Assembly: GCA_024654625.1 (NCBI GenBank)
Contig: JANLHB010000016.1
Span: 137 to 64,136, forward strand
Source: Patescibacteria group bacterium
GTDB lineage: Bacteria > Patescibacteriota > Minisyncoccia > GCA-002772825
Direction: 5' to 3'
DNA length: 64,000 nucleotides
Made by a program: the position numbers and the translations under genes. The notes beneath the pieces are model-generated. The model saw only the letters and a list, made by a program, of their open reading frames with translations, was not told the origin of the DNA and searched no databases. Of the stretch, positions 7,499-47,700 are shown piece after piece; position 1 is the first letter of the stretch, and every line of letters begins with the position of its first letter.

Positions 7499-7506
7499 TT
7501 AATATA

Positions 7507-8074
7507 GTTTACGTTGGGTAATCGCTCTGTTTTTAAAAAACAGGGAGGAAAGTCCGAACACCCTCCAATCCGCTCCGCCAGCTGGCGGACGGATTGAGAG
7601 AAGTAAGCAGAGGGTAATACCCTCCGCTCCAGCAGTGATGTTGGGGTAGGGAAATCCCGATTTTGATTTATCAAAATCGAGGACACTCGACCAGTAAGGT
7701 CGGTGGTGCCACAGAGACAATACTAGTCCGCCTCGGCGGACAAAAGGTGAAAAGACTGAAGGTGTTCCGCCGGTTAGCGGATGCTACCTCAGTGTTATAA
7801 TCGGCAACGATTATAAGTGGTAAACCCTGTTTGGTGCAAGGCCGTGTTGCCAGCGCTTCGCATTGGAAATCCGAAACTCGAATATCGAAATTCGAAACAA
7901 ATACTAAAATTCAAAATTGTTTCGTGCTTCGGATTTATGATTTCGTGCTTCCAATGCGTAGCGTTGGCAGAGTGCCGCTTGATTCCGCTTGGCAACTGGC
8001 GGAACAGATAAATGATTATCGCTGTTTTTACTCTCGGGTAAATTCAGTACAGAATTCGGCTTATAGACGTAAAC
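7507..8074 (+). ncRNA. rnpB: RNase P RNA (bacterial type A) with expanded P12-like helix
   Basis: P4 strands GGAAAGTCCGAAC and ACAGAATTCGGCTTATA with compensatory changes. GGTAAACCC...GCAAGGCC motif. P1 pairing gtttacgt/acgtaaac at the ends. Confidence 0.85.
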
Positions 8075-8081
8075 ATGAATA

Positions 8082-16419: not shown

Positions 16420-17511
16420 ATGGTTTTATCTTTTCAGGATATAAAAAGAATGATCTCAGGGCAAAATCCTATTATTTTGTCTGATATCCCCTTTGCCGAA
16501 AATCAGATTCAACCCTCTACTATTGATTGTAGGCTTGGTAATAGGGTTTATCGTATGAGCACTGCAATGATACCAAGAAGAGAGGAGTCAATCGCTCAAC
16601 TTATAGATAAATATAAGTTATATGAGTTTGAGCTTAGGGAGGGGTCTGTTTTAGAAAAAGGAGCTTCTTATATAATTCCCCTTCTCGAGAAGCTTAATTT
16701 GCCAGACGAATTGAACGCTATTTTTAGTCCTAAGAGCTCGACCGGTAGAGTTGATGTCTTTTGCCGTGTTTTAGTTGACGGGAATCCTCATTACGACATA
16801 ACTGAATCTGGGTATAGTGGTAATCTATACTTGGAAGTTTCTCCTCAATCTTTTTCGGTCGGTATTACGCCGGGCCTTGCTTTGGTTCAGATGAGGATTA
16901 GGCAAGAAAATGTTTTTCTTAGTGATGATGACTTAAAAAGTCTTCAAAAGAGTGATGGTATAATTTACAACGATGTCGGCAAGGATGACAATCCGGTAAT
17001 AAAAAATAATAGCACTTATCTTCATGTAGATTTGCTGAGTGATGTCGTTGGGTTTGAGGCAAAGGATAATTCCGGTAAGTATATTAATTTATTCAAAAAA
17101 GATTTTTATGAGGCTGATGATTTTTGGATACCGATAAAGCGCCCCAAGAATGGAGAGTTGATATTAACCCCCGGTAGATTCTATCTGCTTGCCAGCAAAG
17201 AAAGAATAAGAATTCCTTCTTCTGTCTGCGCCGAGGTTGAAGCTTATGATTTAAATTTTGGCGAATTCCGTACTCATTATGCCGGTTTTTTTGACAATGG
17301 CTTCGGAGGTGACGATGGAACCAGGGCCGTGCTTGAGGTCAGGGTGCATGATGTCCCTTTCAGAATTTGCGATAATCAGCCTATTTGCAGAATGACCTTT
17401 GAAAAGACTAAAGAGGTTCCAGAAATGCTTTATGGAAAAGATCTTAATTCTAACTATGTAAGCAATAAGCCGTCTCTAAGCAAGCATTTTAAAAATAGAC
17501 TCTGGTATTAA
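16420..17511 (+). CDS. Long-form dCTP deaminase family protein (DCD, about 360 aa type)
   Basis: N-terminus matches the dCTP deaminase/dUTPase-fold signature (FQDIKRMI...IQPSTIDCRLGN). Confidence 0.55.
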   Translation: MVLSFQDIKRMISGQNPIILSDIPFAENQIQPSTIDCRLGNRVYRMSTAMIPRREESIAQLIDKYKLYEFELREGSVLEKGASYIIPLLEKLNLPDELNAIFSPKSSTGRVDVFCRVLVDGNPHYDITESGYSGNLYLEVSPQSFSVGITPGLALVQMRIRQENVFLSDDDLKSLQKSDGIIYNDVGKDDNPVIKNNSTYLHVDLLSDVVGFEAKDNSGKYINLFKKDFYEADDFWIPIKRPKNGELILTPGRFYLLASKERIRIPSSVCAEVEAYDLNFGEFRTHYAGFFDNGFGGDDGTRAVLEVRVHDVPFRICDNQPICRMTFEKTKEVPEMLYGKDLNSNYVSNKPSLSKHFKNRLWY

Positions 17512-17521
17512 TCATAAAAAT

Positions 17522-18970
17522 ATGAATAAGGATTTATCTTGGCCAATTAGATATCAGGAAATGTTGCTGCTGGGTAATCCTAAGTCAAATATCGGAGTTG
17601 TTTGTAATTGGACACTGAAGAGCAAAATAGATGATAATTTAAAAAATAAGGATTATCTGGTAATGGGCCAGCTCTATAGTAGCGATATAGGAATATCGTC
17701 CATCATAAGAAATGTGATGGCTCATCAACATATTGATACGATTATATTATGTGGAAATGAGGGAATGATAGAAGAGACTAGGGGAGGGCGTGCATTCCTA
17801 AACCTTATTAAGAATGGAATTGATGAAAATCATAAGATCATAGGTTCAAATTATTCAAAAATAGAAAAAGAGATTCCGGTTGAAAATATTAATGAATTCA
17901 GGAAAAGAATTAAAATTATAGATCTTCTCGGCGTTAATGATGTTTCAAAAATAGAAGAAGCCATTAACGAAAATTTGAAAAAGAAAAATAAGACTTTTGA
18001 AGTTAAATTATTCCCGGAACCAGAAAAAACAAAAGATGTTGAGTTGCCGTCGGAAGGGGCGGTATTTGTTGTAAGGCGTAATAAGGTAGCACACTGTTGG
18101 TTAGACATTTTAAAGAACATAACACATTTCGGGAATATTAAAGGGACTCAATATGGTGACAGGCAAAAAGAAGTGATAAATCTTGTCGCGGTTATCGAGG
18201 ATGAAGATGTTGATAACCCATTTTTGCCGGATTATGTTAAATTAACAAAAAAACAGATTGAAGATTACTCACCAACTATTACAACGGCTATGGAAGTTGA
18301 AGGGTCAAAGTATACATATGGTCAAAGATTAAGAGATCATGATGGAGTTGATCAGATTCAGAATATAATTAATGAGATAAGTGAAGCACCCTTTTCAAGA
18401 AGGGCTGTCGCTTCAACAATCAACGTGAAGATGGATAGTGGTAGTGGTAATCCACCGTGCTTGGATATTGTTCAAGTGTTAGTCCAAGAAAATAAATTAT
18501 ATTTAACAAGTTATATTCGTTCAAATGATATGTATATGGCCTGGCCTGAAAATGCTTTTGGGCTACTCTCTCTTCAGAAGCTTATAATTGAAGAGGTGAA
18601 TAAAAAGATAAAAGGAGAACAACTTGTGAAAGGTTCAATTACAACTATTTCTTGTTCTGCTCATGTATACGAAAGAGAGTGGGAGGATGTTAAAAAGATG
18701 TTATCTAGTAACGAGAGGTTGGAGTGCGCTTGGGATCCAAGGGGTTATTTTATCATAAGCATAGAAGACGGATTAATTAAAGTTTATAATTCTAATGACC
18801 CGGTTAATTTAAGGTGGGAAGGAAAAACAGCTTCTGAAATAATGGATAAGATTATTTTTTATATTTCGATAATGCCGCATGCCGCTGATTTGGGTATGGA
18901 ATTAATGAAAGCGGAAATTGCATTAAAATATGGTCATAGGTACATACAAGATAATCCATTGATTTTGTAA
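17522..18970 (+). CDS. Thymidylate synthase (ThyA)-family protein with about 190-aa N-terminal extension of unknown function
   Basis: The C-terminal half aligns with ThyA: SRRAVASTINV, catalytic NPPC, YIRSND (Arg/Ser/Asp of the dUMP site), WPEN (Asn as in uracil-specific enzymes). The N-terminal domain is unassigned (weak LOG/Rossmann-like DTIILCGNEGMIEE). Confidence 0.6.
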   Translation: MNKDLSWPIRYQEMLLLGNPKSNIGVVCNWTLKSKIDDNLKNKDYLVMGQLYSSDIGISSIIRNVMAHQHIDTIILCGNEGMIEETRGGRAFLNLIKNGIDENHKIIGSNYSKIEKEIPVENINEFRKRIKIIDLLGVNDVSKIEEAINENLKKKNKTFEVKLFPEPEKTKDVELPSEGAVFVVRRNKVAHCWLDILKNITHFGNIKGTQYGDRQKEVINLVAVIEDEDVDNPFLPDYVKLTKKQIEDYSPTITTAMEVEGSKYTYGQRLRDHDGVDQIQNIINEISEAPFSRRAVASTINVKMDSGSGNPPCLDIVQVLVQENKLYLTSYIRSNDMYMAWPENAFGLLSLQKLIIEEVNKKIKGEQLVKGSITTISCSAHVYEREWEDVKKMLSSNERLECAWDPRGYFIISIEDGLIKVYNSNDPVNLRWEGKTASEIMDKIIFYISIMPHAADLGMELMKAEIALKYGHRYIQDNPLIL

Positions 18971-19053
18971 TTTTTATTGCAAATATCCTGATTATGAGGT
19001 AAAAGTATCACTAGATAGATATTTAAAAATTAACCTAACAAAGGGAGATAAAT

Positions 19054-19707
19054 ATGAAAAAAGGCAAATTCATAGTGATAGAGGGTGGAGAAGGGGCCGG
19101 TAAGGGTATGGTCATGGCGTTTTTGAGGGAGAAGTTGGCTCTACGTGATGATGTCGTCTTTACGAGGGAACCCGGGGGAACTCCTGTTGCTGAGAAGATC
19201 AGAGAAGTCCTTATGGATAAAGAGAATAAGAACACATCTGTTTTAGCTGAACTTTTCCTCTTCTGCTCAGCTCGGGCGCAACATGTGGACGAGCTTGTAA
19301 GACCTTCGCTTGAGGCCGGCAAGATAGTAATAAGCGACAGATTTGATATGTCGACTTTGGCGTATCAGATCTATGGCAGACAGAGGCCAACTTTTCAGAA
19401 GATTTTTATTCTGTTGAATGATATTGCCAAGACGGGTCTTAGACCAGATTCGGTCATCTACCTTGATGTTGATCCGGTCGTCGGTCTTGAAAGGAAGCAC
19501 AAGAGCGACGAAGGTCACTGTACGCGCTTTGATGTGGAGAATCTTAGTTTTCATGAAAGGGTGCGTGCCGGGTATACTGCGCAGTATAAGGAGGCGATTA
19601 AAGATAGGAGCAACCCCGCCTGGTTCTTAGTTGCCACAACAAAGATGGCGGAAAAAGAGGTTAAGAAAACCGTGTGGGGGATAGTTGAAAAAACTGTAAA
19701 CACTTAA
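19054..19707 (+). CDS. tmk: Thymidylate kinase
   Basis: P-loop IVIEGGEGAGKG and DRFDMSTLAYQ signature. Confidence 0.85.
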   Translation: MKKGKFIVIEGGEGAGKGMVMAFLREKLALRDDVVFTREPGGTPVAEKIREVLMDKENKNTSVLAELFLFCSARAQHVDELVRPSLEAGKIVISDRFDMSTLAYQIYGRQRPTFQKIFILLNDIAKTGLRPDSVIYLDVDPVVGLERKHKSDEGHCTRFDVENLSFHERVRAGYTAQYKEAIKDRSNPAWFLVATTKMAEKEVKKTVWGIVEKTVNT

Positions 19708-19734
19708 CTTGCGAAATAAAAGGAGGTAAAGGAG

Positions 19735-21090
19735 ATGAATATAAAGCTCGTTTCAAAAAGTGTAATAGATCCTCAAGTCCTTGCTTCTTATGCGGCAAAA
19801 GGATGCTATGAAGCGGAAGAGCCGGAGTTGGGTAAGAAGATAGATCTTCAAAAACGCATATTCAACGTTGGGCACCACACAGTTCTTCAGCACAATCACT
19901 ATACTTTTCACATAGAAGGGATAGCGGTAAGCGACATAACCTTTGGCCTGCACCTTGCGAGCCCCTTTTACAACTCAAGCCAGAGGTCAGGCAGATTTTG
20001 TTCTGCTATGTTTTCCTCTCCCGACTACGGAAAGATAGAACAGTACATAAGAACATATTGGCCCGAGGTTGGAAATGGAGAGGTTGCTCTTGCTTTAAAT
20101 CTTGTAAAAGGCGGGATTGAAATCTTTCAGTCAAACATAGACAAGGCGACAAAAATCGCCAAGCATCTAATTAAAGGAGAACGGCCTTTTGCTTCCGAAA
20201 GCTACATAGAGGCGAATGCCGGAAAGTTTGCTCAAGAGCAGATGAGGATGTTTGTCCCAACAATATTCCCAACAGGGATAACCGTAACCTTTAACTTGTC
20301 CGCCCTTGTTTCAATGTATAGGGTGGCATGGTCTCCTGTGTTAAAGCATGTAACTTCGGAGATGATGCGTCTTGCTCTTTGCGACACACCAGAGCTTAAC
20401 TTTATGCTTGAAAAAGAAGAACAGGAAGAGTGGCCCCTAGAGCTTTTTGCTCGGTATCATAAAGCCACAATACCTGTGTTGTCCAAGCCGAAAGGAAAGC
20501 TTGTAAGGATAGAGAATGCAAATTCTTTTACCGAGCCGAAAGGTGGGGACTCACACCCTGTTGACCTTCTTCCTTTCTCCCCCCGGTATATGAGTAATAC
20601 CAATGGGGTAATAGAAACGGAAGTAGAGATTTCTGTTGCCACAATGGGACAGGACCAGCGCCACAGAACTGTTAAAAGAGGCCAACCAAGGTTCACTGAA
20701 AGATTTTATCTTCCTCCAATCCCAAGACTTTGTGGACTTGAGGGAGTTGCGGAAAGTTTTGCTTTCGCATGGTCTTCACTTCTTAGCCTTCTTCCTGGAA
20801 GCTTGGTTACGGCGCTCGCTCCTTACGGGGCTATGGTTTCTTATCCAAAAAGAGCTGATTTCAATGCCGCCTCTCATGAGTATACCAAACGGCTTTGCTG
20901 GTGTACTCAGGAGGAGATATACCATTCTGTTCTTTCTGTAAGAAACGAAGTTTCTAAAAAAGAAGGAGAGAACAGCCCTCTACTTAAGATGTTTTCTCCT
21001 TCTTGCGTCAAGACGGGAAAATGCGGAGAAGGAAGCAGGTATTGCGGAAGAGACATGAAAGAAAACTGCTTCATAGAGAGAAAAGTATAG
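19735..21090 (+). CDS. ThyX-family (Thy1 domain, flavin-dependent thymidylate synthase-like) protein with large internal insertion
   Basis: GHHTVLQHNHYTFHIEGIAVS matches the ThyX N-terminal motif. An RHRxxxxxxxRF motif appears about 230 aa later. Length is 451 aa versus about 220-250 for ThyX. Confidence 0.5.
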   Translation: MNIKLVSKSVIDPQVLASYAAKGCYEAEEPELGKKIDLQKRIFNVGHHTVLQHNHYTFHIEGIAVSDITFGLHLASPFYNSSQRSGRFCSAMFSSPDYGKIEQYIRTYWPEVGNGEVALALNLVKGGIEIFQSNIDKATKIAKHLIKGERPFASESYIEANAGKFAQEQMRMFVPTIFPTGITVTFNLSALVSMYRVAWSPVLKHVTSEMMRLALCDTPELNFMLEKEEQEEWPLELFARYHKATIPVLSKPKGKLVRIENANSFTEPKGGDSHPVDLLPFSPRYMSNTNGVIETEVEISVATMGQDQRHRTVKRGQPRFTERFYLPPIPRLCGLEGVAESFAFAWSSLLSLLPGSLVTALAPYGAMVSYPKRADFNAASHEYTKRLCWCTQEEIYHSVLSVRNEVSKKEGENSPLLKMFSPSCVKTGKCGEGSRYCGRDMKENCFIERKV

Positions 21091-21106: not shown

Positions 21107-21143
21107 AACCCCAGGAAACCATCAAATGGTTTCCTGGGGTTTT
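21107..21143. terminator. Rho-independent terminator after the ThyX-like gene
   Basis: aaccccaggaaaccatcaaatggtttcctggggtttt perfect hairpin plus T-run. Confidence 0.65.
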
Positions 21144-21192: not shown

Positions 21193-24100
21193 ATGGAAGA
21201 TGATTTAAAATCTAAAAGTCCGGCCGAGGCGGAAAAGGACATATTGAAGTTTTGGCAGGATAATAAAATTTTTGAAAAGACATTGGAGAAGGATGCTCCT
21301 TCGGGAGATTTTATCTTCTACGATGGGCCGCCTTTTGCCAACGGTTTGCCTCATTATGGGCATATTTTGGCCAGTGTGATAAAAGACGCCATCCCTCGCT
21401 ATAAGACGATGCGAGGGTATCGCGTCCCGCGCCGATGGGGTTGGGATTGTCATGGTCTGCCTGTTGAAAATGTGGTTGAGAAAGAACTCGGACTTAAAGC
21501 TAAGAAAGATATTGAAGATCTTGGACTGGAGAAGTTTAACAAGGCCGCAAGGAATGTGGTAGTTCGCGATACAAGCGAATGGAAAAAAATTATTCCTAAG
21601 ATAGGTCGTTTTGTTGATATGGAGGCTGACTATAAGACGATGGATCCAAGTTATATGGAATCAGTCTGGTGGGTCTTTAAAACGCTTTACGATAAAGGGC
21701 TTGTCTATGAGGGATACAAGCCGATGCATCTCTGTCCGCGTTGTGAGACGACTCTTGCAAACTTTGAAGTATCTCAAGGATATAAAGATATTACTGATAT
21801 TTCAGTAACGGCTAAATTTGAGCTTGATGACGAGCCGGGCACTTTTGTCTTGGCTTGGACGACAACACCTTGGACACTCCCGGGCAATGTAGCTCTTGCA
21901 GTAAATCCTGATATTTTATATGCGAAGATTGAAAAAGACGGAGAGAGGTTTATTTTAGCGAAAGACCGCCTTGATACTATTGAAGGCGAGTATAAAATAA
22001 TAGAGACTTTTAAAGGTTTTGCATTAGCCGGTAAGAGTTATAAACCGCTTTTTGATTATTATTCAGAGAAAAAAGATTTAGAGAACAGAGAAAACGGTTG
22101 GAAGATTTATTCGGCTGATTTTGTGACGACGGAAGAAGGAACCGGAGTCGTCCACATTGCGCCGGCTTTTGGCGAGGATGATATGAATGTCTCTTTAGAA
22201 TATGCGCTTCCTTTTGTTCAACATGTCTCAGCTGACGGAAGATTTAAGAGTGAGGTAAAAGATTTTGCCGGCAGATTTGTAAAACCGAAAGAAAATCATC
22301 AAGAGACTGATATTGAGATAATAAAACATTTGGCGCACGCGGGTAAATTATTCGCCAAGAAGAAGATCGTTCACTCTTATCCGCATTGCTGGAGATGCGA
22401 CACGCCACTCTTGAATTATGCGACTTCGTCTTGGTTTGTTAAAGTTACTGCGATAAAAGATAATCTTCTTAAGAATAATGGAGAGATTAATTGGGTACCG
22501 GCTCATATAAAGGACGGGCGTTTTGGCAAATGGCTTGAAGGTGCCAGAGATTGGGCGATATCAAGGAGCAGATTTTGGGGAGCTCCTCTTCCGGTGTGGA
22601 AGTGCGATAAGTGCGATAAGCTGGAAATTGCCGGTTCAATAGACGATATTAGAAATAAAGTTAAAAAGTCAGGCAATAAATATTTTGTAATGCGTCATGG
22701 GGAGTCGGAGCATAATAAGAAAAATATTGTCAGCTCTAATGTTTTAAATCCTCATCATATTACGGAAAAAGGGAAGACGGATATAAAGGAGATTGCTCAA
22801 AAGGTAAAAAAGGAAAACATTGATATTATATTCTCTTCAGACTTCGTTCGGACAAAGGAGACTGCTGAGCTACTGGCAAGCGAGATAGGTTGCGATAAAA
22901 GGAAGATAATTTATGATAAACGTATTAGGGAATTAAACACAGGAACTTTTGATGGTAAAAGGCCGAGAGATTATCATGATTATTTTTCTACTCTTGAAGA
23001 GAAGTTTACAAAGACGCCGCCTGAAGGAGAAAATTTGGTTGAGCTTAAAAATAGAGTATCTCAATTCTTGTATGATATTGAGGAAAAATACCAAGATAAA
23101 AATATTTTAATAATAAGCCATGAGTATCCTATCTGGCTTCTTTCCGCAGGAGCTGTCGGGGCTGATATTAAGAAGTCTGTAAAGATGAAAGAGGAAAAAA
23201 GAGATGATTATATAGAAACAGGGGAGTTAATGGAACTTGATTTTGTGCCACTCCCTCATAATGAAAATTATGAAATTGATCTTCATAGGCCATATATAGA
23301 CAAGGTTGAATTTGCTTGTTCTTGTGGGGGTAAAATGAAGAGAATTATTCATGTGTTTGATTGTTGGTTTGAGTCCGGCTCTATGCCGTATGCTTCGGCG
23401 CATTATCCGTTCGCTTGCGCTCAAAATCAAAAATCAAAAATCAAAAATCAAAAATGCTTGGCATTACCGGCCGAGTTTATCGCTGAAGGATTAGACCAGA
23501 CTCGAGGATGGTTTTATACACTGCTTGTTTTATCTACGGCTCTCTTTGAAAAGCCAGCCTATAAGAATGTGATTGTAAACGGGATAATCTTGGCTGAAGA
23601 CGGCCAGAAAATCTCGAAGCGTCTTAAGAATTATCCTGATCCGATGGATGTGGTGCATAAATACGGCGCCGACGCTCTGCGTTTATATCTTCTTTCTTCA
23701 CCTGTGGTACGCGCCGAGGATCTTAATTTTTCCGAGCATGGCGTTGATGAAGTGTATAAGAAAGTGATTCTGCGCTTATGGAATGTTTACAGTTTCTACG
23801 ATATGTACGCACTTGGCGGTTCAACCGCCAAATTAAATTTGGCGGTTGAACCGCCAAATGGGGATAAGAACGTGCTGGATAAGTGGATAATCGCGCGACT
23901 TCTCGAGCTGGAGGAAGAGATAACTCTAAATCTTGAGAAGTATGAACTTGATAAAGCAACAAGACCTATTTTTGATTTTGTAGATGATCTTTCTACTTGG
24001 TATATCAGGCGCTCAAGGGATAGATTCAAGAATGAAGGTGAAGATAAAGGGAGTGCCATTTTAACCACCAGATTTGTTCTAGTGGAGTTCTCTAAAGTTA

Positions 24101-24798
24101 TCGCTCCTTTTATTCCATTTATATCAGAGAGGTTATATCAATTGATTAGTAGAGAAGATGAGGCTAAATCAAATTCACAGAATTTGATCGCCCGATCCGC
24201 CAAAGGCGGATTTAGGGAGAGTATTCATTTAGATGAATGGCCTTATAAGAAGTCGTTAGCTGATAATGTCCTGGGTATGTTTGGTGTAGATAAATCTACT
24301 AAAAATTTGGATATTCTTTATGATATGAAAGAGATAAGAAAAATCGTCTCTCTTGGTCTTGAGGCGCGCGCCGAAGCGGGGTTTAAGGTAAGGCAGCCTT
24401 TGCAAAAATTGATAATCAAAAATGAAAAGTTGAAAGGTAAAGATGATCTACTTGAGCTGGTGAAAGATGAGGTGAATGTGAAAGAGGTAGCTTTTGATGC
24501 CGGCATCTCAAATGAAGTGAAATTAGATTTGGAGCTGACGCCGGAGCTTATCGCCGAAGGGCAGTTTAGGGATATGGTGAGATTTGTCCAGGGCTTGAGG
24601 AAGAAAGCCAGCTTGACACCGGATGATGAGATTTCCGTCTCTGTAAAGACGAGTTCTTCCGGACAAGAATTACTAAAGAAATTTGAAAATGAGTTTAAGG
24701 AGATTGTTAACGCGAGGACTGTGGAGTTCAAGGATATAGAAGATGGAGAGCTGTTGAAATTAGATGACCTGGAAATACATATAAAAATCACGAAATAA
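21193..24798 (+). CDS. ileS: Isoleucyl-tRNA synthetase (type 2) with inserted histidine-phosphatase (PGM-family) domain
   Basis: PPFANGLPHYGH and KISKRLKN class I motifs and a CP1 editing domain (WTTTPWTLPGN). A roughly 200-aa insertion carries RHGESEHN, SSDFVRTKETAE and ISHEYPI histidine-phosphatase motifs. Confidence 0.9.
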   Translation: MEDDLKSKSPAEAEKDILKFWQDNKIFEKTLEKDAPSGDFIFYDGPPFANGLPHYGHILASVIKDAIPRYKTMRGYRVPRRWGWDCHGLPVENVVEKELGLKAKKDIEDLGLEKFNKAARNVVVRDTSEWKKIIPKIGRFVDMEADYKTMDPSYMESVWWVFKTLYDKGLVYEGYKPMHLCPRCETTLANFEVSQGYKDITDISVTAKFELDDEPGTFVLAWTTTPWTLPGNVALAVNPDILYAKIEKDGERFILAKDRLDTIEGEYKIIETFKGFALAGKSYKPLFDYYSEKKDLENRENGWKIYSADFVTTEEGTGVVHIAPAFGEDDMNVSLEYALPFVQHVSADGRFKSEVKDFAGRFVKPKENHQETDIEIIKHLAHAGKLFAKKKIVHSYPHCWRCDTPLLNYATSSWFVKVTAIKDNLLKNNGEINWVPAHIKDGRFGKWLEGARDWAISRSRFWGAPLPVWKCDKCDKLEIAGSIDDIRNKVKKSGNKYFVMRHGESEHNKKNIVSSNVLNPHHITEKGKTDIKEIAQKVKKENIDIIFSSDFVRTKETAELLASEIGCDKRKIIYDKRIRELNTGTFDGKRPRDYHDYFSTLEEKFTKTPPEGENLVELKNRVSQFLYDIEEKYQDKNILIISHEYPIWLLSAGAVGADIKKSVKMKEEKRDDYIETGELMELDFVPLPHNENYEIDLHRPYIDKVEFACSCGGKMKRIIHVFDCWFESGSMPYASAHYPFACAQNQKSKIKNQKCLALPAEFIAEGLDQTRGWFYTLLVLSTALFEKPAYKNVIVNGIILAEDGQKISKRLKNYPDPMDVVHKYGADALRLYLLSSPVVRAEDLNFSEHGVDEVYKKVILRLWNVYSFYDMYALGGSTAKLNLAVEPPNGDKNVLDKWIIARLLELEEEITLNLEKYELDKATRPIFDFVDDLSTWYIRRSRDRFKNEGEDKGSAILTTRFVLVEFSKVIAPFIPFISERLYQLISREDEAKSNSQNLIARSAKGGFRESIHLDEWPYKKSLADNVLGMFGVDKSTKNLDILYDMKEIRKIVSLGLEARAEAGFKVRQPLQKLIIKNEKLKGKDDLLELVKDEVNVKEVAFDAGISNEVKLDLELTPELIAEGQFRDMVRFVQGLRKKASLTPDDEISVSVKTSSSGQELLKKFENEFKEIVNARTVEFKDIEDGELLKLDDLEIHIKITK
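23421..23454 (+). repeat. Heptanucleotide tandem repeat (TCAAAAA)x about 5 inside ileS coding sequence
   Basis: tcaaaa tcaaaaa tcaaaaa tcaaaaa tcaaaaa, translating to AQNQKSKIKNQK in a normally conserved YPFEN...FPADFIAEG segment. Confidence 0.8.
23813..23857. repeat. 45-bp inverted repeat (20-bp perfect arms, 5-nt loop) embedded in ileS coding sequence
   Basis: ttggcggttcaaccgccaaa ttaaa tttggcggttgaaccgccaa. Translated in frame as GGSTAKLNLAVEPPNG. Confidence 0.8.
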
Positions 24799-44737: not shown

Positions 44738-47700
44738 ATGAGTAGATTTAAGAAATCTAGATTGAGTAAAATAGTTTCTGTAACTTTAGGTCTTACGACT
44801 GCTGTTATGATGTTTGGCGGAGTATTGGTTACTCCAGCAAGCGCGGCAACAGTTGAAGAACTTCAGGCGCAGATCGCAACTCTTCTTGCTCAGATCCAAG
44901 CTTTACAGAGTCAGATGTCTGGCATCTCAGGCGGGTCTGTTGCTACAGGAACAGTTTGCGGATTCACATTCGGTGCGAATTTGAAGCAGGGTGATACAGG
45001 GTCAGATGCTATGAATCTTCAAAAGGTTCTTAACTCAGATCAAGCAACACAAGTTGCTTCAAGTGGAGTTGGCTCAACAGGGAACGAATCATCGTATTTC
45101 GGTTCTTTGACAAAGTCAGCTGTTATCAAATTCCAAAACAAATACGCTTCTGATGTTTTGACCCCAGTTGGTCTTACAACAGGAACAGGTTATGTTGGTC
45201 CTTCCACTAGAGCTAAGTTAAATGCTCTCTTTGGAACATGTGCGCCAACTACACCTCCAACAACAGGCGAAGACACAACACCTCCACCAACTTCAGTTGG
45301 TACAGGACTTACAGTATCTTCTGTCGCTCAACCAACAGCATCACTTGCAGTTGAGAGCGCAGCAAGACTTCCATTCACTAAAGTTGCTTTGACAGCTTCA
45401 GCAGATGGAGACGTTACTGTAAATTCAATCCTTGTTGAAAGAACAGGTTTGGCGCAAGACGCTGTTTTTGCCGGAATCGTCCTTTTGGATGAGAACGGAA
45501 ATCAGATCGGTATCGCTAAGACTTTGAACTCAGTTCACCAGGCAACAGTAGGAGATCCTTTTGTTGTTAAGGCTGGACAGACAAGAACAGTTACAATCGC
45601 TGGAAATATGCTAGCAAGCCTAGACAGCTACGCTGGTCAGGTTGCATTCCTTTCAGTTGTTAAAGTAAATACTTCAGCTAATGTATCAGGAGCGCTTCCT
45701 ATTACAGGCGCTGGACACACAATAAACATTAATCTTGCAATAGGTTCAGCTACTCCTGCAGTAGGAGGACTTGATCCTAATGCAAGCGCAAGCAAGCCAA
45801 TCGGTACAACCGGTTATACTTTCGCTTCAGTTAAGGTTACATCTGGTTCAGCTGAGAAAATTCGTTTGAATTCTATCAGATGGAATCAGTCAGGTTCAGT
45901 CGGTTCTACAGACTTGGAGAATTTGAAGACTTATGTTGACGGTACAGCTTATGACGTAGTCGCAAGCTCAAATGGTCAATATTACACTACAAACTTCGGC
46001 TCAGGAATCGTTATTGATAAAGGTTCTTCAAAAGAAGTCTCTATCAAAGGTGATATCGCAGGTGGTTCAGGAAGAACAATAATATTTGATATCTACAAGA
46101 ATACTGATATCAATGTAACAGGCGAGACATTCGGTTATGGAATCACTCCTTCAGGAGAGACTACAGCTACAGCAGCTGACACTTCATCACAATTCACTAC
46201 AGGAACACCATGGTTTGATGGTTCTAAAGTGACAGTATCAGCTGGAACTCTTAATGTTCAGAAGGCTACTACAGTAGAAGCTCAGAACATTGCAGAGAAC
46301 GTAACTGATCAGCCTCTTGGCGGTTTCTTGGTAGAAGCTAAGGGTGAAGAAATTTCTGCTGCAAGCTTGGTATTCCATTTCACAATTGCTACAACATCAG
46401 GTTCAGCGCAAAGCGTTGCAGACGTCACTAATATTACTTTGGTTGATGAAAACGGCAGCATAGTTGCTGGTCCTGCAGACGGAGCAACAGTGGGACTTTC
46501 AGGCGGTACAGTTACATTCTCTGATACAGTTACATTCCCAATCGGTAAACACCTTTACCAATTGAAAGGTAAGATAGGAACTGATTTCGCTAATAACGAC
46601 ACAATTCAGGCTTCTACTACACCTTCAACAGATTGGACGACTGTTACAGGTCAGGTTACTGGAAACAGTATTACACCTTCACCTACATCAGCAGTTGTAG
46701 CTAATACAATGACTGTTAAGGCGTCATCATTGACAATTTCCGTATCACCGGATCCAGCTGCTCAGACAGTTGTTGCCGGAGGTACATTCACTTTTGCTAA
46801 TTATTACTTTGATACAACTGCTTCAGGTGAAGACATCAAGATGTCAACATTGCCTCTAGCTTACGGTGTGTCAGGTGACGGTTCAGCAACAAACCTTACA
46901 AGCTGTGCTTTGTATGACGGCGCTTCACAGATAACAACAGGTTCAAATGTTGTTAATCCTTCAGCTGCCGGTTCTTCAACATCATTCACTATTGATGGAT
47001 CAGGACTTGTAATTCCTAAAGGAACAGTTAAGACAGTTTCATTGAAATGTGATATAGCTGGAAATGCCACAGGTATGTACCTATGGGGAATTGATTCAGC
47101 AGCCACATTTGCAGGAACAGGCTTAACATCAAATCAGTCAGTTACTCCTACAGCTACAGACGCGAATGGTCAGTTGATAACACTGGCTTCAAGCGGATCA
47201 TTCACAGTAGCCCTTGATACTGGTAAGAGCCCTTCATCTAAAGCTGCGGCTGTAGCCGGTTCAACAGGTAATACTGTAGGTGTATTGAAGTTCCATGCTA
47301 CAAACGAAGCAATTGATATTACTAGAGTTGCTCTACAGATAACATCTGCTTCAACATCTAGAAATGACATTGTAAGAGTTACATTGCATGACTACGATTC
47401 AGGTGCGCAGGTTGGCGAAGCATTCTTCACGACTGCTAACAACGCAACATCAACATTAACAAGCGCTTTCAGAATTCCAAAAGATTCTGATAAGTATATG
47501 ACAGTTAAAGCTGATCTTGCTACAATCGGCACAACAGGTCTTGGTACACAAGGTCACTTGGTAACAGTTGATTATGACGGCACTGATTCAACTGGTACAA
47601 GAGGTACAGGTGTAAATTCAGGCTCTACAATCAACACAGGTTCAACAGCTGACTCAGCTGTAAATGGTTTGAGGATGTTCAAATCTCTACCTACAGTTGC

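What the first reader, a model, noticed from the sequence alone, without database searches (positions are those of the whole stretch)
22600..23400. Complete histidine-phosphatase (phosphoglycerate-mutase family) domain inserted into the catalytic core of isoleucyl-tRNA synthetase
Between the conserved ISRSRFWG...WKCDKCDK and DCWFESGS blocks (where E. coli IleRS has about 60 aa), this protein has about 260 aa. The insert carries all hallmark histidine-phosphatase motifs: RHGESEHN, SSDFVRTKETAE, a GTFDGK segment, PEGENLVELKNRV and ISHEYPI (the second catalytic His). The CP1 editing domain is still present, so this is an additional enzymatic module. Its substrate is unknown. Candidates include aminoacyl-adenylate, Ap4A or a phospho-substrate.
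Basis: partly seen in the sequence, partly recalled or inferred. Interest (0 to 1): 0.65.

Follow-up and report, generated by a model that had tools for sequence, protein, structure and literature searches.

The report
Phosphatase domain built into isoleucyl-tRNA synthetase
The enzyme that loads isoleucine onto tRNA in this uncultured Parcubacteria-group bacterium carries a complete, apparently active phosphatase inside its catalytic core, and because related bacteria encode the same phosphatase as a separate gene directly in front of the synthetase gene, the two probably work together, on a substrate still unknown.

Summary
Window 21193..24798 (+) is one uninterrupted 1201-aa type-2 IleRS (TIGR00392 883 bits). 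Residues 488-688 (nt 22654-23256) are a full histidine-phosphatase domain (PF00300, E=2.9e-30; AF2 pLDDT 95). It replaces a 5-8 residue loop between two zinc knuckles.

It is not a chimera. All 120 best full-length homologues carry it, at least 537 GTDB species representatives hold a relative of the insert, and 79 of the 80 loci inspected have it inside ileS. The catalytic residues are essentially invariant: R501, H502, R553 and E580 in 120/120, H643 in 119/120.

New here: other Parcubacteria encode a roughly 190-aa standalone orthologue immediately upstream of an insert-less ileS. In 30 non-redundant loci the stop and start overlap (16) or lie 1-22 nt apart (14). Of 69 informative metagenome loci, 57 link the phosphatase to ileS. 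The fused and split states changed at least 3 times, always at the same insertion point. One close relative appears to carry a replaced cassette, and others carry 2-4 tandem copies.

The nearest solved folds are small-substrate phosphatases (PspA, PhoE, CobC, GpgP), not true mutases, and no equivalog threshold is met. The substrate remains unknown.

Best reading (about 0.6): an active phosphomonoesterase selected to act together with IleRS. I found no paper describing it. It is a new variant of a known kind.

The parts
21193..24798 (+). Complete isoleucyl-tRNA synthetase gene (type 2, eukaryote-like), 1201 aa, carrying the inserted phosphatase domain
   Evidence: ORF. TIGR00392 scores 883.3 bits against a 621.4 cut-off. 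Best PDB matches are IleRS2 and cytoplasmic IleRS: 9w01, 8c8v, 1ile. P0121 is 100% identical and labelled 'Parcubacteria group bacterium'.
21107..21141 (+). Terminator-like hairpin (16-bp stem plus T-run) ending the upstream thyX-like gene. ileS appears to start a new transcription unit.
   Evidence: This is a consensus scan only, so function is not shown.
21352..21363 (+). HIGH signature (HYGH, aa 54-57) of the class I synthetic site
   Evidence: Read directly from the sequence. P53, H54 and G56 are invariant and H57 nearly invariant in 93 homologues.
21778..22386 (+). CP1 editing domain (aa ~196-398) with the TTTPWT motif
   Evidence: The isolated IleRS editing domain 1wk8 matches aa 196-398 at E=2.5e-30. 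W222, T223, T224, T225, W227 and T228 are invariant.
22603..22614 (+). First zinc knuckle, C471-x-x-C474, just upstream of the insert
   Evidence: C471 and C474 are conserved in 119/120 close homologues. The cysteines are lost in many more distant fused relatives.
22654..23256 (+). Inserted histidine-phosphatase domain (aa 488-688). Pfam His_Phos_1 covers aa 498-662 (nt 22684-23178).
   Evidence: PF00300 at E=2.9e-30. Boundaries come from the break in alignments to solved IleRS2. AF2 of the insert alone gives pLDDT 95.1 and pTM 0.91. Foldseek gives TM 0.72-0.75 to PspA, GpgP, CobC and PhoE.
22693..22701 (+). R501-H502-G503: the catalytic nucleophile His and the first phosphate-binding Arg
   Evidence: R501 and H502 are 120/120 and G503 is 117/120. 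They align with the RH of PspA 4ij5.
22849..22851 (+). R553, the second phosphate-binding Arg (motif S-x-x-x-R-T-x-E-T)
   Evidence: 120/120.
22930..22932 (+). E580, the putative general acid
   Evidence: 120/120 in fused forms. The standalone family's consensus has Asp at this position (RLRDxNxG).
23119..23121 (+). H643, the second catalytic His (motif ISHEYPI)
   Evidence: 119/120.
23257..23325 (+). Return linker (HNENYEIDLHRPYID) and second zinc knuckle, C709-x-C711
   Evidence: H689 is 119/120, H698 and D703 are 120/120, C709 is 118/120 and C711 is 119/120. IleRS2 alignments resume at 689-696. pLDDT here is about 92 in the full-length model.
23359..23379 (+). DCWFESG block, where the Rossmann fold resumes
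   Evidence: D723, W725, S728 and G729 are 120/120.
23608..23622 (+). KMSKS-equivalent loop (KISKR, aa 806-810)
   Evidence: K806 and K809 are invariant and S808 nearly invariant in 93 homologues.
23878..24411 (+). Anticodon-binding domain (aa 896-1073)
   Evidence: PF08264 at E=1.5e-26.
24517..24795 (+). Type-2 IleRS C-terminal domain (DUF5915, aa 1109-1201)
   Evidence: PF19302 at E=1e-14.

Best explanation
SHOWN. The gene encodes a canonical type-2 isoleucyl-tRNA synthetase with its HIGH, KMSKS-like, CP1 editing, anticodon-binding and C-terminal domains intact. A complete PhoE/PspA/CobC-like histidine phosphatase of about 200 aa has been spliced into the hairpin between the WxISRxRxWG and DxWFxSG blocks. 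In this protein that hairpin is held by a CxxC...CxC zinc knuckle. The insert folds as an autonomous domain on short, confidently modelled linkers. It keeps the full catalytic set of the superfamily: nucleophile His502, Arg501, Arg553, acid Glu580 and His643. In sister Parcubacteria the orthologous phosphatase is a separate gene, overlapping or within 22 nt of the start of an insert-less ileS. The two states interconverted several times, always at the same insertion point.

INFERRED. The domain is a working phosphomonoesterase that acts through a phospho-His502 intermediate. Selection keeps it at a 1:1 ratio with IleRS and physically on it, as an operon partner and probable complex in some lineages and as a covalent insert here. 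The reason would be that its substrate bears on Ile-tRNA(Ile) synthesis. Candidates are a phosphorylated nucleotide or other ligand of the synthetic site, a phosphate blocking the 3' end of tRNA(Ile), or a phosphorylated residue of IleRS itself. Which of these is correct is not determined. I give no single candidate more than about 0.2.
For: Architecture.

Not an artefact:
- All 120 best full-length homologues (54-84% identity; Wolfe-, Niyogi-, Lloyd- and Pace-bacteria) have PF00300 inside PF00133.
- At least 537 GTDB species representatives carry a relative of the insert, and 79 of the 80 inspected have it inside ileS.

Active-site selection:
- R501, H502, R553 and E580 are 120/120, H643 is 119/120 and N508 is 117/120, while the insert averages only 54% identity.
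- Every tandem copy keeps the RHG motif.

Fold:
- pLDDT is 95.1 for the insert alone.
- The full-length model has pTM 0.80, with insert and linkers at pLDDT 88-96.
- The nearest solved structures are phosphatases.

Functional link:
- The standalone family has at least 2048 members and lies directly upstream of an insert-less IleRS of 931-989 aa.
- Of 69 informative metagenome loci, 41 are adjacent, 6 have two tandem phosphatase genes followed by ileS, and 10 are fused, giving 57/69 linked.
- In 30 non-redundant split loci, stop and start overlap in 16 and are 1-22 nt apart in 14.
- The pair persists while its flanks vary: 18 upstream and 12 downstream neighbour families.
- At least 3 fused/split transitions appear in 100% of bootstraps, with an identical insertion point.
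- P0138 has a core 71% identical to the window's but an insert only 30% identical that still keeps all catalytic motifs. That suggests the cassette was replaced at the same site.
- No locus has both a fused and a standalone copy.
Against: - No biochemical data exist, and no substrate can be deduced.
- The closest characterised relatives act on small metabolites unrelated to translation.
- A subgroup of the standalone family, 12 of 69 loci, is not next to ileS and has variable neighbours. The phosphatase can therefore exist apart from ileS.
- In alpha/beta folds the active site lies at the C-terminal ends of the strands, which is the end of the domain opposite its tether. By that inference the site need not face the synthetic site. 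I could not obtain model coordinates to measure this.
- About 40% of loci share an argS...recO frame, so part of the adjacency is inherited synteny.
- The trees are neighbour-joining only.
- The insert's GC is slightly lower than the rest of the gene (0.348 against 0.412).
Confidence: 0.6

Rival explanations
1. Hitch-hiking metabolite phosphatase. The domain is an ordinary housekeeping phosphatase, for example acting on phosphoserine, a sugar phosphate, 3-phosphoglycerate or a nucleotide. Its function has nothing to do with IleRS. It sits beside or inside ileS only because that guarantees constitutive co-expression in a tiny genome. The neighbouring gene was the handy donor for insertion into a structurally permissive surface hairpin.
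For: - The closest solved relatives are all small-metabolite phosphatases.
- A conserved aromatic and hydrophobic cap segment (Y594, F598, F605, K607, P609-P610) suggests a defined small-molecule pocket.
- 12 of 69 loci have the phosphatase away from ileS.
- The same IleRS family tolerates other insertions: GNAT in CP1, AAA_18, and tandem copies.
- Part of the adjacency is inherited synteny.
Against: - The phosphatase-ileS link (57/69) is conserved far better than either flank.
- Overlapping or near-abutting stop and start codons in 30/30 non-redundant split loci point to stoichiometric co-translation.
- The states interconverted repeatedly at one exact residue position.
- P0138 shows an apparent cassette replacement at the same site.
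- No locus inspected retains both a standalone and a fused copy.
Confidence: 0.3
2. A genuine cofactor-dependent phosphoglycerate mutase. The insert supplies the cell's glycolytic PGM activity. This is a special case of the hitch-hiking model.
For: Superfamily membership. dPGM_arch NF038349 is the top phosphatase-type NCBIfam hit.
Against: - All dPGM equivalog thresholds are missed by a wide margin: 78.4 against 225, 61.4 against 261, 39 against 316.
- dPGM structures rank below the phosphatases and align with lower target coverage.
- The domain is about 200 aa, like PhoE, PspA and CobC, and shorter than the solved dPGM chains listed (about 228-274 aa).
Confidence: 0.04
3. A non-catalytic module. 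The domain has been recruited as a structural, tRNA-binding or dimerisation element and no longer needs catalysis.
For: - Histidine-phosphatase enzymes are commonly dimers or tetramers (my own knowledge, for example PspA homodimers). Variants with 2 or 4 tandem copies could mimic that.
- The linkers are rigid in the model.
Against: The whole catalytic constellation is near-invariant at 54% mean domain identity. RHG is kept in every tandem copy. Such conservation is not expected without catalysis.
Confidence: 0.05
4. An assembly or binning artefact: a chimeric contig or a frameshifted join.
For: None found. The exact-sequence contig look-up returned nothing, but that only reflects the index.
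Against: - An identical protein exists in NCBI (P0121).
- Hundreds of independent assemblies from different projects show the same in-frame architecture.
Confidence: 0.01

Closest known systems
Bacterial type-2 (eukaryote-like) IleRS, e.g. Priestia megaterium IleRS2 (PDB 8c8u/8c8v) and Thermus thermophilus IleRS (1ile)
   Same: The whole synthetase scaffold is shared. E-values are 1e-214 to 1e-228 over the HUP/Rossmann, CP1 editing, anticodon-binding and type-2 C-terminal domains. The hairpin flanked by CxxC and CxC is also shared.
   Different: Those enzymes have 5-8 residues where this one has a 201-aa phosphatase domain. A 2026 survey that curated about 96,000 IleRS sequences does not mention 'phosphatase' or 'Patescibacteria' in its main text (doi 10.64898/2026.02.03.703510).
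NCBIfam NF040702, 'isoleucine--tRNA ligase, N-acetyltransferase domain-containing' (ileS_w_GNAT)
   Same: It is a precedent for an IleRS that carries an extra enzymatic domain. One relative, P0173, has both a GNAT and the phosphatase.
   Different: The domain is different, and so is the site: the GNAT of P0173 lies in the CP1 region, aa 285-415. The window protein scores 319.5 against that model's 1999-bit cut-off.
Small histidine phosphatases: PspA phosphoserine phosphatase (4ij5), PhoE (1h2e), CobC alpha-ribazole phosphatase (6nru, 6e4b), GpgP (4qih), Aquifex riboflavin-pathway HFP (9mmh; PMC12051542)
   Same: Same fold, size and catalytic residues. Foldseek gives E=2e-13 to 1e-10 and TM 0.70-0.75. 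The profile against PDB gives E=1.4e-21 to 4e-16.
   Different: Identity is only 19-26%. No equivalog cut-off is reached (PspA 73.9 against 350; CobC 74.9 against 162.9). Those enzymes are free-standing, whereas this one is inserted in, or translationally coupled to, IleRS.
Bifunctional RNase H / acid phosphatase (NCBIfam NF005567, PRK07238; Rv2228c type)
   Same: A histidine-phosphatase domain is covalently joined to a nucleic-acid enzyme. That model hits the insert at E=3.5e-20.
   Different: That is an end-to-end fusion, not an insertion into a catalytic core, and the partner enzyme is different. The score of 72.7 is far below the 326 cut-off. To my knowledge the coupling of the two activities there is also unexplained.
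6-phosphofructo-2-kinase / fructose-2,6-bisphosphatase
   Same: The classic case of a histidine-phosphatase domain fused to a second catalytic domain acting in the same pathway. It matches at E~1e-9.
   Different: That is a C-terminal fusion to a kinase with a known shared metabolite. Here the domain is nested inside a synthetase and the shared substrate is unknown.

Membership tests
Isoleucyl-tRNA synthetase (TIGR00392 equivalog; class Ia) | Whole-protein score above the curated equivalog cut-off | tested here: met
   883.3 bits against 621.4.
Isoleucyl-tRNA synthetase (TIGR00392 equivalog; class Ia) | HIGH and KMSKS signature motifs of the class I synthetic site | tested here: met
   HYGH at aa 54-57 and KISKR at aa 806-810. 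H54, G56, K806 and K809 are invariant in 93 homologues.
Isoleucyl-tRNA synthetase (TIGR00392 equivalog; class Ia) | CP1 editing domain with the Thr-rich motif | tested here: met
   1wk8 matches aa 196-398 at E=2.5e-30. WTTTPWT is invariant.
Isoleucyl-tRNA synthetase (TIGR00392 equivalog; class Ia) | Type-2 C-terminal organisation rather than the IleRS1 zinc-binding domain | tested here: met
   DUF5915 at aa 1109-1201. The best PDB hits are IleRS2 and cytoplasmic IleRS, while IleRS1 (1ffy, 8c9e) scores far lower.
Isoleucyl-tRNA synthetase (TIGR00392 equivalog; class Ia) | Aminoacylation of tRNA(Ile) with isoleucine | not testable with these tools
   Needs an enzyme assay.
Histidine phosphatase superfamily, branch 1 (PF00300) | Pfam score above the gathering threshold | tested here: met
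   105.8 bits against 21.7, covering profile positions 2-166 of 194.
Histidine phosphatase superfamily, branch 1 (PF00300) | Catalytic core: the RHG nucleophile His, two Arg, a second His and an acidic proton donor | tested here: met
   R501, H502, R553 and E580 are 120/120 and H643 is 119/120. They align with PspA.
Histidine phosphatase superfamily, branch 1 (PF00300) | The alpha/beta fold of the superfamily | tested here: met
   AF2 pLDDT 95.1. Foldseek probability 1.00 and TM 0.70-0.75 to many members.
Histidine phosphatase superfamily, branch 1 (PF00300) | Phosphomonoesterase or mutase activity through a phospho-histidine intermediate | not testable with these tools
   Needs an assay with the H502A control.
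2,3-BPG-dependent phosphoglycerate mutase (dPGM equivalogs NF038349, PRK03482, PRK01295, PRK01112) | Score above the equivalog cut-off | tested here: not met
   78.4 against 225, 61.4 against 261, 39 against 316, and 37.4 against 320. dPGM structures rank below the phosphatases.
Phosphoserine phosphatase PspA (NF045917) | Score above the equivalog cut-off | tested here: not met
   73.9 against 350, although 4ij5 is the best solved relative at 26% identity.
Alpha-ribazole phosphatase CobC (TIGR03162) | Score above the equivalog cut-off | tested here: not met
   74.9 against 162.9.
IleRS with GNAT domain (NF040702) | Score above the cut-off, and presence of a GNAT domain | tested here: not met
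   319.5 against 1999. Pfam finds no acetyltransferase in the window protein.
Mupirocin-resistant IleRS MupA/MupB (NF000257, NF000258) | Score above the exception-model cut-off | tested here: not met
   727.9 and 749.3 against 1900. The similarity reflects only shared type-2 ancestry.
Known anti-phage defence components (PADLOC-DB) | Match to any PADLOC model | tested here: not met
   No hit at E<=0.01 for the insert or for three standalone members.

The most novel reading that the evidence does not exclude
The phosphatase is a built-in repair or counter-toxin activity for isoleucine charging. Under this reading it removes a blocking phosphate or pyrophosphate from the 3'-terminal ribose of tRNA(Ile), or it removes a phosphate placed on the KMSKS-loop serine (S808) of IleRS. 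From my own knowledge, the first kind of lesion is made by toxic small-alarmone-synthetase toxins and the second resembles what HipA/HipT-type kinase toxins do to GltX and TrpS. That would make this the first aminoacyl-tRNA synthetase with an integrated phosphatase that protects its own reaction. The evidence here requires only that the phosphatase is active and tied to IleRS. It neither supports nor excludes this specific substrate.
Probability: 0.15. Interest if true: 0.85.

Novelty: new variant of a known kind. Interest (0 to 1): 0.62.

Why it matters
Aminoacyl-tRNA synthetases often gain appended domains, but a second, catalytically intact enzyme nested inside the catalytic core of an essential synthetase is unusual. 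Here it is conserved across hundreds of species of a major uncultured bacterial group. The alternation between gene neighbour and fused domain gives a clear, testable prediction that the phosphatase and IleRS act together, and it supplies natural 'split' and 'fused' versions for experiments.

If the substrate proves to be tRNA, IleRS itself or a synthetic-site ligand, that would reveal a new layer of control or repair of isoleucine charging.

There is also a practical consequence. The architecture is present in public databases under labels such as 'class I tRNA ligase family protein', 'histidine phosphatase family protein, partial' and 'broad specificity phosphatase PhoE', and one 195-aa standalone phosphatase is labelled 'isoleucyl-tRNA synthetase'. 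Automated metabolic reconstructions of Parcubacteria may therefore score a phosphoglycerate mutase or phosphatase that is really part of IleRS.

Tried and rejected
- The exact-sequence contig look-up for the window protein returned nothing. The organism was instead inferred from the identical NCBI protein P0121.
- My first motif-regex check of the 80 GTDB loci was too crude because many motif variants were missed. I replaced it with phmmer-based classification.
- A search for a standalone His_Phos paralogue in the window found none.
- PADLOC gave no defence-system match.
- Neighbours of the ileS-unlinked phosphatase subgroup show no common theme. They include an HI0933-like flavoprotein, a PD-(D/E)XK nuclease, a Sua5/YrdC fusion and a NYN domain.
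- Literature searches found no description of the fusion.
- I could not name the hairpin unambiguously as CP2 or CP3, because the papers read give no residue boundaries.
- I could not measure whether the phosphatase pocket faces the synthetic site or the tRNA, because the prediction tool returns confidence and secondary structure but no coordinates.
- I considered a recent foreign origin for the insert. Its GC is only modestly lower (0.348 against 0.412), and the insert co-diverges with the host protein (r=0.62), so I rejected this.
- I rejected the chimera explanation.
Full report
**The observation.** Window 21193..24798 (+) is a single uninterrupted 1201-aa ORF. NCBIfam places it in the ileS equivalog TIGR00392 at 883.3 bits against a 621.4 cut-off. 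Pfam splits tRNA-synt_1 into two stretches around a His_Phos_1 (PF00300) hit at aa 498-662, with E=2.9e-30 and 105.8 bits against a 21.7 cut-off. It also finds Anticodon_1 and the type-2 C-terminal DUF5915.

**Exact anatomy.** The best solved relatives are type-2 and cytoplasmic IleRS (9w01, 8c8v, 1ile; E=1e-214 to 1e-228). Their alignments stop at query residue 487 and resume at 689-696, while only 5-8 residues elapse in the structures. The insert is therefore aa 488-688 (nt 22654-23256). It sits between C471-x-x-C474 and C709-x-C711, a zinc-knuckle hairpin lying between the WxISRxRxWG and DxWFxSG blocks of the Rossmann fold. Different papers call the connective peptides in this part of the enzyme CP2 or CP3. 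I could not fix which name applies.

The synthetase parts are intact. HYGH, KISKR and the WTTTPWT editing motif are conserved across 93 homologues, and the isolated editing domain 1wk8 matches aa 196-398.

The insert alone folds with pLDDT 95.1 and pTM 0.91. In the full-length model (pLDDT 86.4, pTM 0.80) the insert and both linkers score 88-96, which suggests a fixed tether rather than a floppy one.

**Not an artefact, and a clade-wide trait.** An identical protein is deposited as a Parcubacteria-group MAG protein (P0121). All 120 best full-length homologues (54-84% identity, 1035-1352 aa; Wolfe-, Niyogi-, Lloyd- and Pace-bacteria) have PF00300 inside PF00133. Of the 80 best loci, 79 hold the IleRS N-terminal part, the insert and the IleRS C-terminal part in a single ORF. 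Only those 80 were inspected. The named lineages belong to the Parcubacteria group of Patescibacteria. Some TPA records are labelled 'Saccharibacteria' and one 'Spirochaetia', and I did not verify those labels.

**Is the domain an active enzyme?** Across the 120 homologues the insert averages 54% identity to the window's, against 64% for the rest of the protein. Despite that, R501, H502, R553 and E580 are 120/120, H643 is 119/120, and G503 and N508 are 117/120. These align with the catalytic residues of PspA. From established knowledge of the histidine-phosphatase superfamily, this is the full set needed for phosphoryl transfer through a phospho-histidine intermediate.

The nearest solved folds are small-substrate phosphatases: PspA phosphoserine phosphatase, GpgP, CobC, PhoE and the Aquifex riboflavin-pathway phosphatase, at TM 0.70-0.75 and 19-26% identity. 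True phosphoglycerate mutases rank lower. No NCBIfam equivalog cut-off for dPGM, PspA, CobC or PhoE-type enzymes is reached. The domain is therefore a member of the superfamily, but no known specificity can be assigned.

**The main new finding.** Searching 1.84 billion representative proteins with the insert alone recovered other fused IleRS and also complete standalone proteins of 189-201 aa at 39-46% identity. This standalone family is large (at least 2048 proteins at E<1e-10) and carries Parcubacteria labels where it is named at all.

On three long contigs from deeply diverged members, the standalone gene lies immediately upstream, on the same strand, of an insert-less IleRS of 931-956 aa. 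I then scanned metagenome contigs with the standalone family and obtained 80 loci, of which 69 have enough downstream sequence to judge:

| State | Loci |
|---|---|
| ileS starts right after the phosphatase gene | 41 |
| Two tandem phosphatase genes, then ileS | 6 |
| Fused (insert inside ileS) | 10 |
| Separate subgroup, not linked to ileS | 12 |

In 30 non-redundant split loci the phosphatase stop and ileS start overlap in 16 (by 4, 8 or 10 nt) and are 1-22 nt apart in 14. The pair persists while its flanks vary: 18 upstream neighbour families among 36 loci and 12 downstream among 31. About 40% of both split and fused loci share an argS...recO frame, which suggests the two states interconverted in place. 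No inspected locus has both a fused and a standalone copy.

**Evolutionary dynamics.** In neighbour-joining trees of the IleRS core (119 taxa) and of the phosphatase (163 taxa), fused and split forms are strongly clustered but interleaved. The minimum number of state changes is 3-4 in all 100 bootstraps of the IleRS tree (about 28 when states are shuffled) and 3-8 in the phosphatase tree (about 54 when shuffled).

Every fused form examined uses the same insertion point...GS[IV]x[ED][IL]K, then the insert, then PLPHNxNYELDLHRPYID... Many lineages have lost the zinc-binding cysteines, so zinc is not essential to the arrangement.

P0138 is informative. Its IleRS core is 71% identical to the window's and its flanks are nearly identical, but its insert is only 30% identical. 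Every other homologue is at least 41% identical there. The P0138 insert still keeps all catalytic motifs. This looks like a replaced cassette at the same site, although it rests on one 4.5-kb contig.

Other relatives carry 2-4 tandem phosphatase domains, each with RHG, or add an AAA_18 domain after the phosphatase.

**Interpretation.**

- *Shown:* a canonical IleRS2 plus a complete, selectively maintained phosphatase, and a persistent genetic link between the two that takes either operon or insertion form.
- *Inferred:* the phosphatase is active and is kept stoichiometric with, and attached to, IleRS because its substrate bears on Ile-tRNA(Ile) synthesis. I put this at about 0.6.
- *Main rival (about 0.3):* an unrelated metabolite phosphatase that hitch-hikes on an essential gene and entered a permissive hairpin from next door. 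In its favour are the small-metabolite relatives, the conserved cap segment that suggests a small pocket, the unlinked subgroup and the shared synteny. Against it are the much higher conservation of the pair than of its flanks, the translational coupling, and the repeated use and re-use of one exact site.
- *Minor rivals:* a purely structural role is unlikely given the invariant catalytic residues. A true dPGM is unlikely given the failed equivalog tests.

I cannot name the substrate. Candidates drawn from my own knowledge rather than from tests here are a nucleotide monophosphate product or inhibitor, a phosphate-blocked tRNA 3' end, and a phosphorylated KMSKS-loop serine. I give none of them more than about 0.2. 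By inference from the alpha/beta fold, the active site lies at the end of the domain opposite its tether. Without coordinates I could not check whether it faces the synthetic site.

**Novelty.** The domain combination is recorded in precomputed Pfam annotations, and the proteins are deposited under generic names. I found no paper describing it. A 2026 survey that curated about 96,000 IleRS sequences does not mention it in its main text. NCBIfam has a dedicated model for IleRS with a GNAT domain but none for this architecture. I rate it a new variant of a known kind, namely a synthetase that has accreted an extra domain. Three features are unusual: the extra domain is a complete second enzyme nested in the catalytic core, it is clade-wide, and it has a gene-neighbour counterpart.

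**Local context.** A 16-bp terminator-like hairpin at 21107-21141 separates ileS from an upstream dTMP-synthesis cluster. The next gene, a GH1 glycosidase, starts 2 nt after the ileS stop. The window does not have the argS...recO frame seen in about 40% of relatives.

Noticed in passing
window 23413-23457 (IleRS aa 741-755): A lineage-specific extra loop (ACAQNQKSKIKNQKC) lies just after the YPF motif. At the alignment columns printed (aa 741-743), 114-117 of 120 homologues have a gap. The region is modelled with pLDDT below 50 at 734-737 and 743-754. Two further low-confidence stretches are at aa 998-1005 and 1024-1037.
   Followed up: partly
window 16420-21090: A pyrimidine-deoxynucleotide cluster lies directly upstream of ileS. 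It holds dCTP deaminase, an unusual 482-aa protein combining MtrA-like, thymidylate-synthase (ThyA)-like and PterinBD-DUF4346 domains, thymidylate kinase, and a long (451-aa) ThyX/Thy1-like protein. ThyA-like and ThyX-like genes sit side by side.
   Followed up: partly
window 7506-8079 (+): Bacterial RNase P RNA class A (124.4 bits) spans 574 nt for a 367-position model, so it must contain sizeable insertions. No tRNA gene is found anywhere in the 64 kb.
   Followed up: no
window 44738-48283 and 50670-55457 (+): Two very large ORFs. The 1182-aa one has no Pfam match at all. The 1596-aa one has only a lamin-tail domain.
   Followed up: no
whole window: GC skew is positive in 30 of the 32 2-kb bins, so the cumulative skew rises almost throughout. 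Nearly all long ORFs are on the + strand. This is consistent with one replichore's leading strand.
   Followed up: no
P0255, P0297, P0339, P0345 (proteins): IleRS relatives with 2-4 tandem His_Phos domains at the insertion site, each keeping RHG. Split-form genomes can likewise have two tandem standalone phosphatase genes overlapping into ileS: L098, L124, L125, L138, L142, L144 and L148.
   Followed up: partly
P0379; P0173; L017:4101-8201: Other enzymatic domains occur in the same IleRS family. P0379 has an AAA_18 (P-loop kinase-like) domain after the phosphatase. P0173 has a GNAT domain inside the CP1 region in addition to the phosphatase. The L017 ORF has an HD-domain fragment at its C-terminus.
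   Followed up: partly
P0138 (1162 aa, ENA contig of 4452 bp): The IleRS core is 71% identical to the window's, but the insert is only 30% identical and about equally distant from the fused and standalone families, with catalytic motifs intact. This may be an independent replacement of the phosphatase cassette at the same loop.
   Followed up: partly
L101-L103, L105, L106, L109, L111, L114, L119, L121, L132, L137: A subgroup of the standalone phosphatase family (MKLILKNRYFLLRHGKTIHQ...) is not next to ileS. Its neighbours vary: an HI0933-like flavoprotein (often), a PD-(D/E)XK nuclease, a Sua5/YrdC fusion, a NYN domain, and a gene whose product begins like the GTPase TypA/BipA (identified from its N-terminal sequence only).
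   Followed up: partly
L007, L013, L025 and other fused loci: Many fused IleRS have lost the CxxC and CxC cysteines flanking the insert, for example VWEAESGERIAIGS and LEKDGMDYKR. The zinc site of this hairpin is therefore dispensable in those lineages.
   Followed up: partly
P0411 (195 aa), P0001, P0017, P0028 and others: Database names are inconsistent. A 195-aa standalone phosphatase is labelled 'isoleucyl-tRNA synthetase', and IleRS fragments are labelled 'histidine phosphatase family protein' or 'broad specificity phosphatase PhoE'. This is a likely source of annotation error in Parcubacteria metabolic reconstructions.
   Followed up: no
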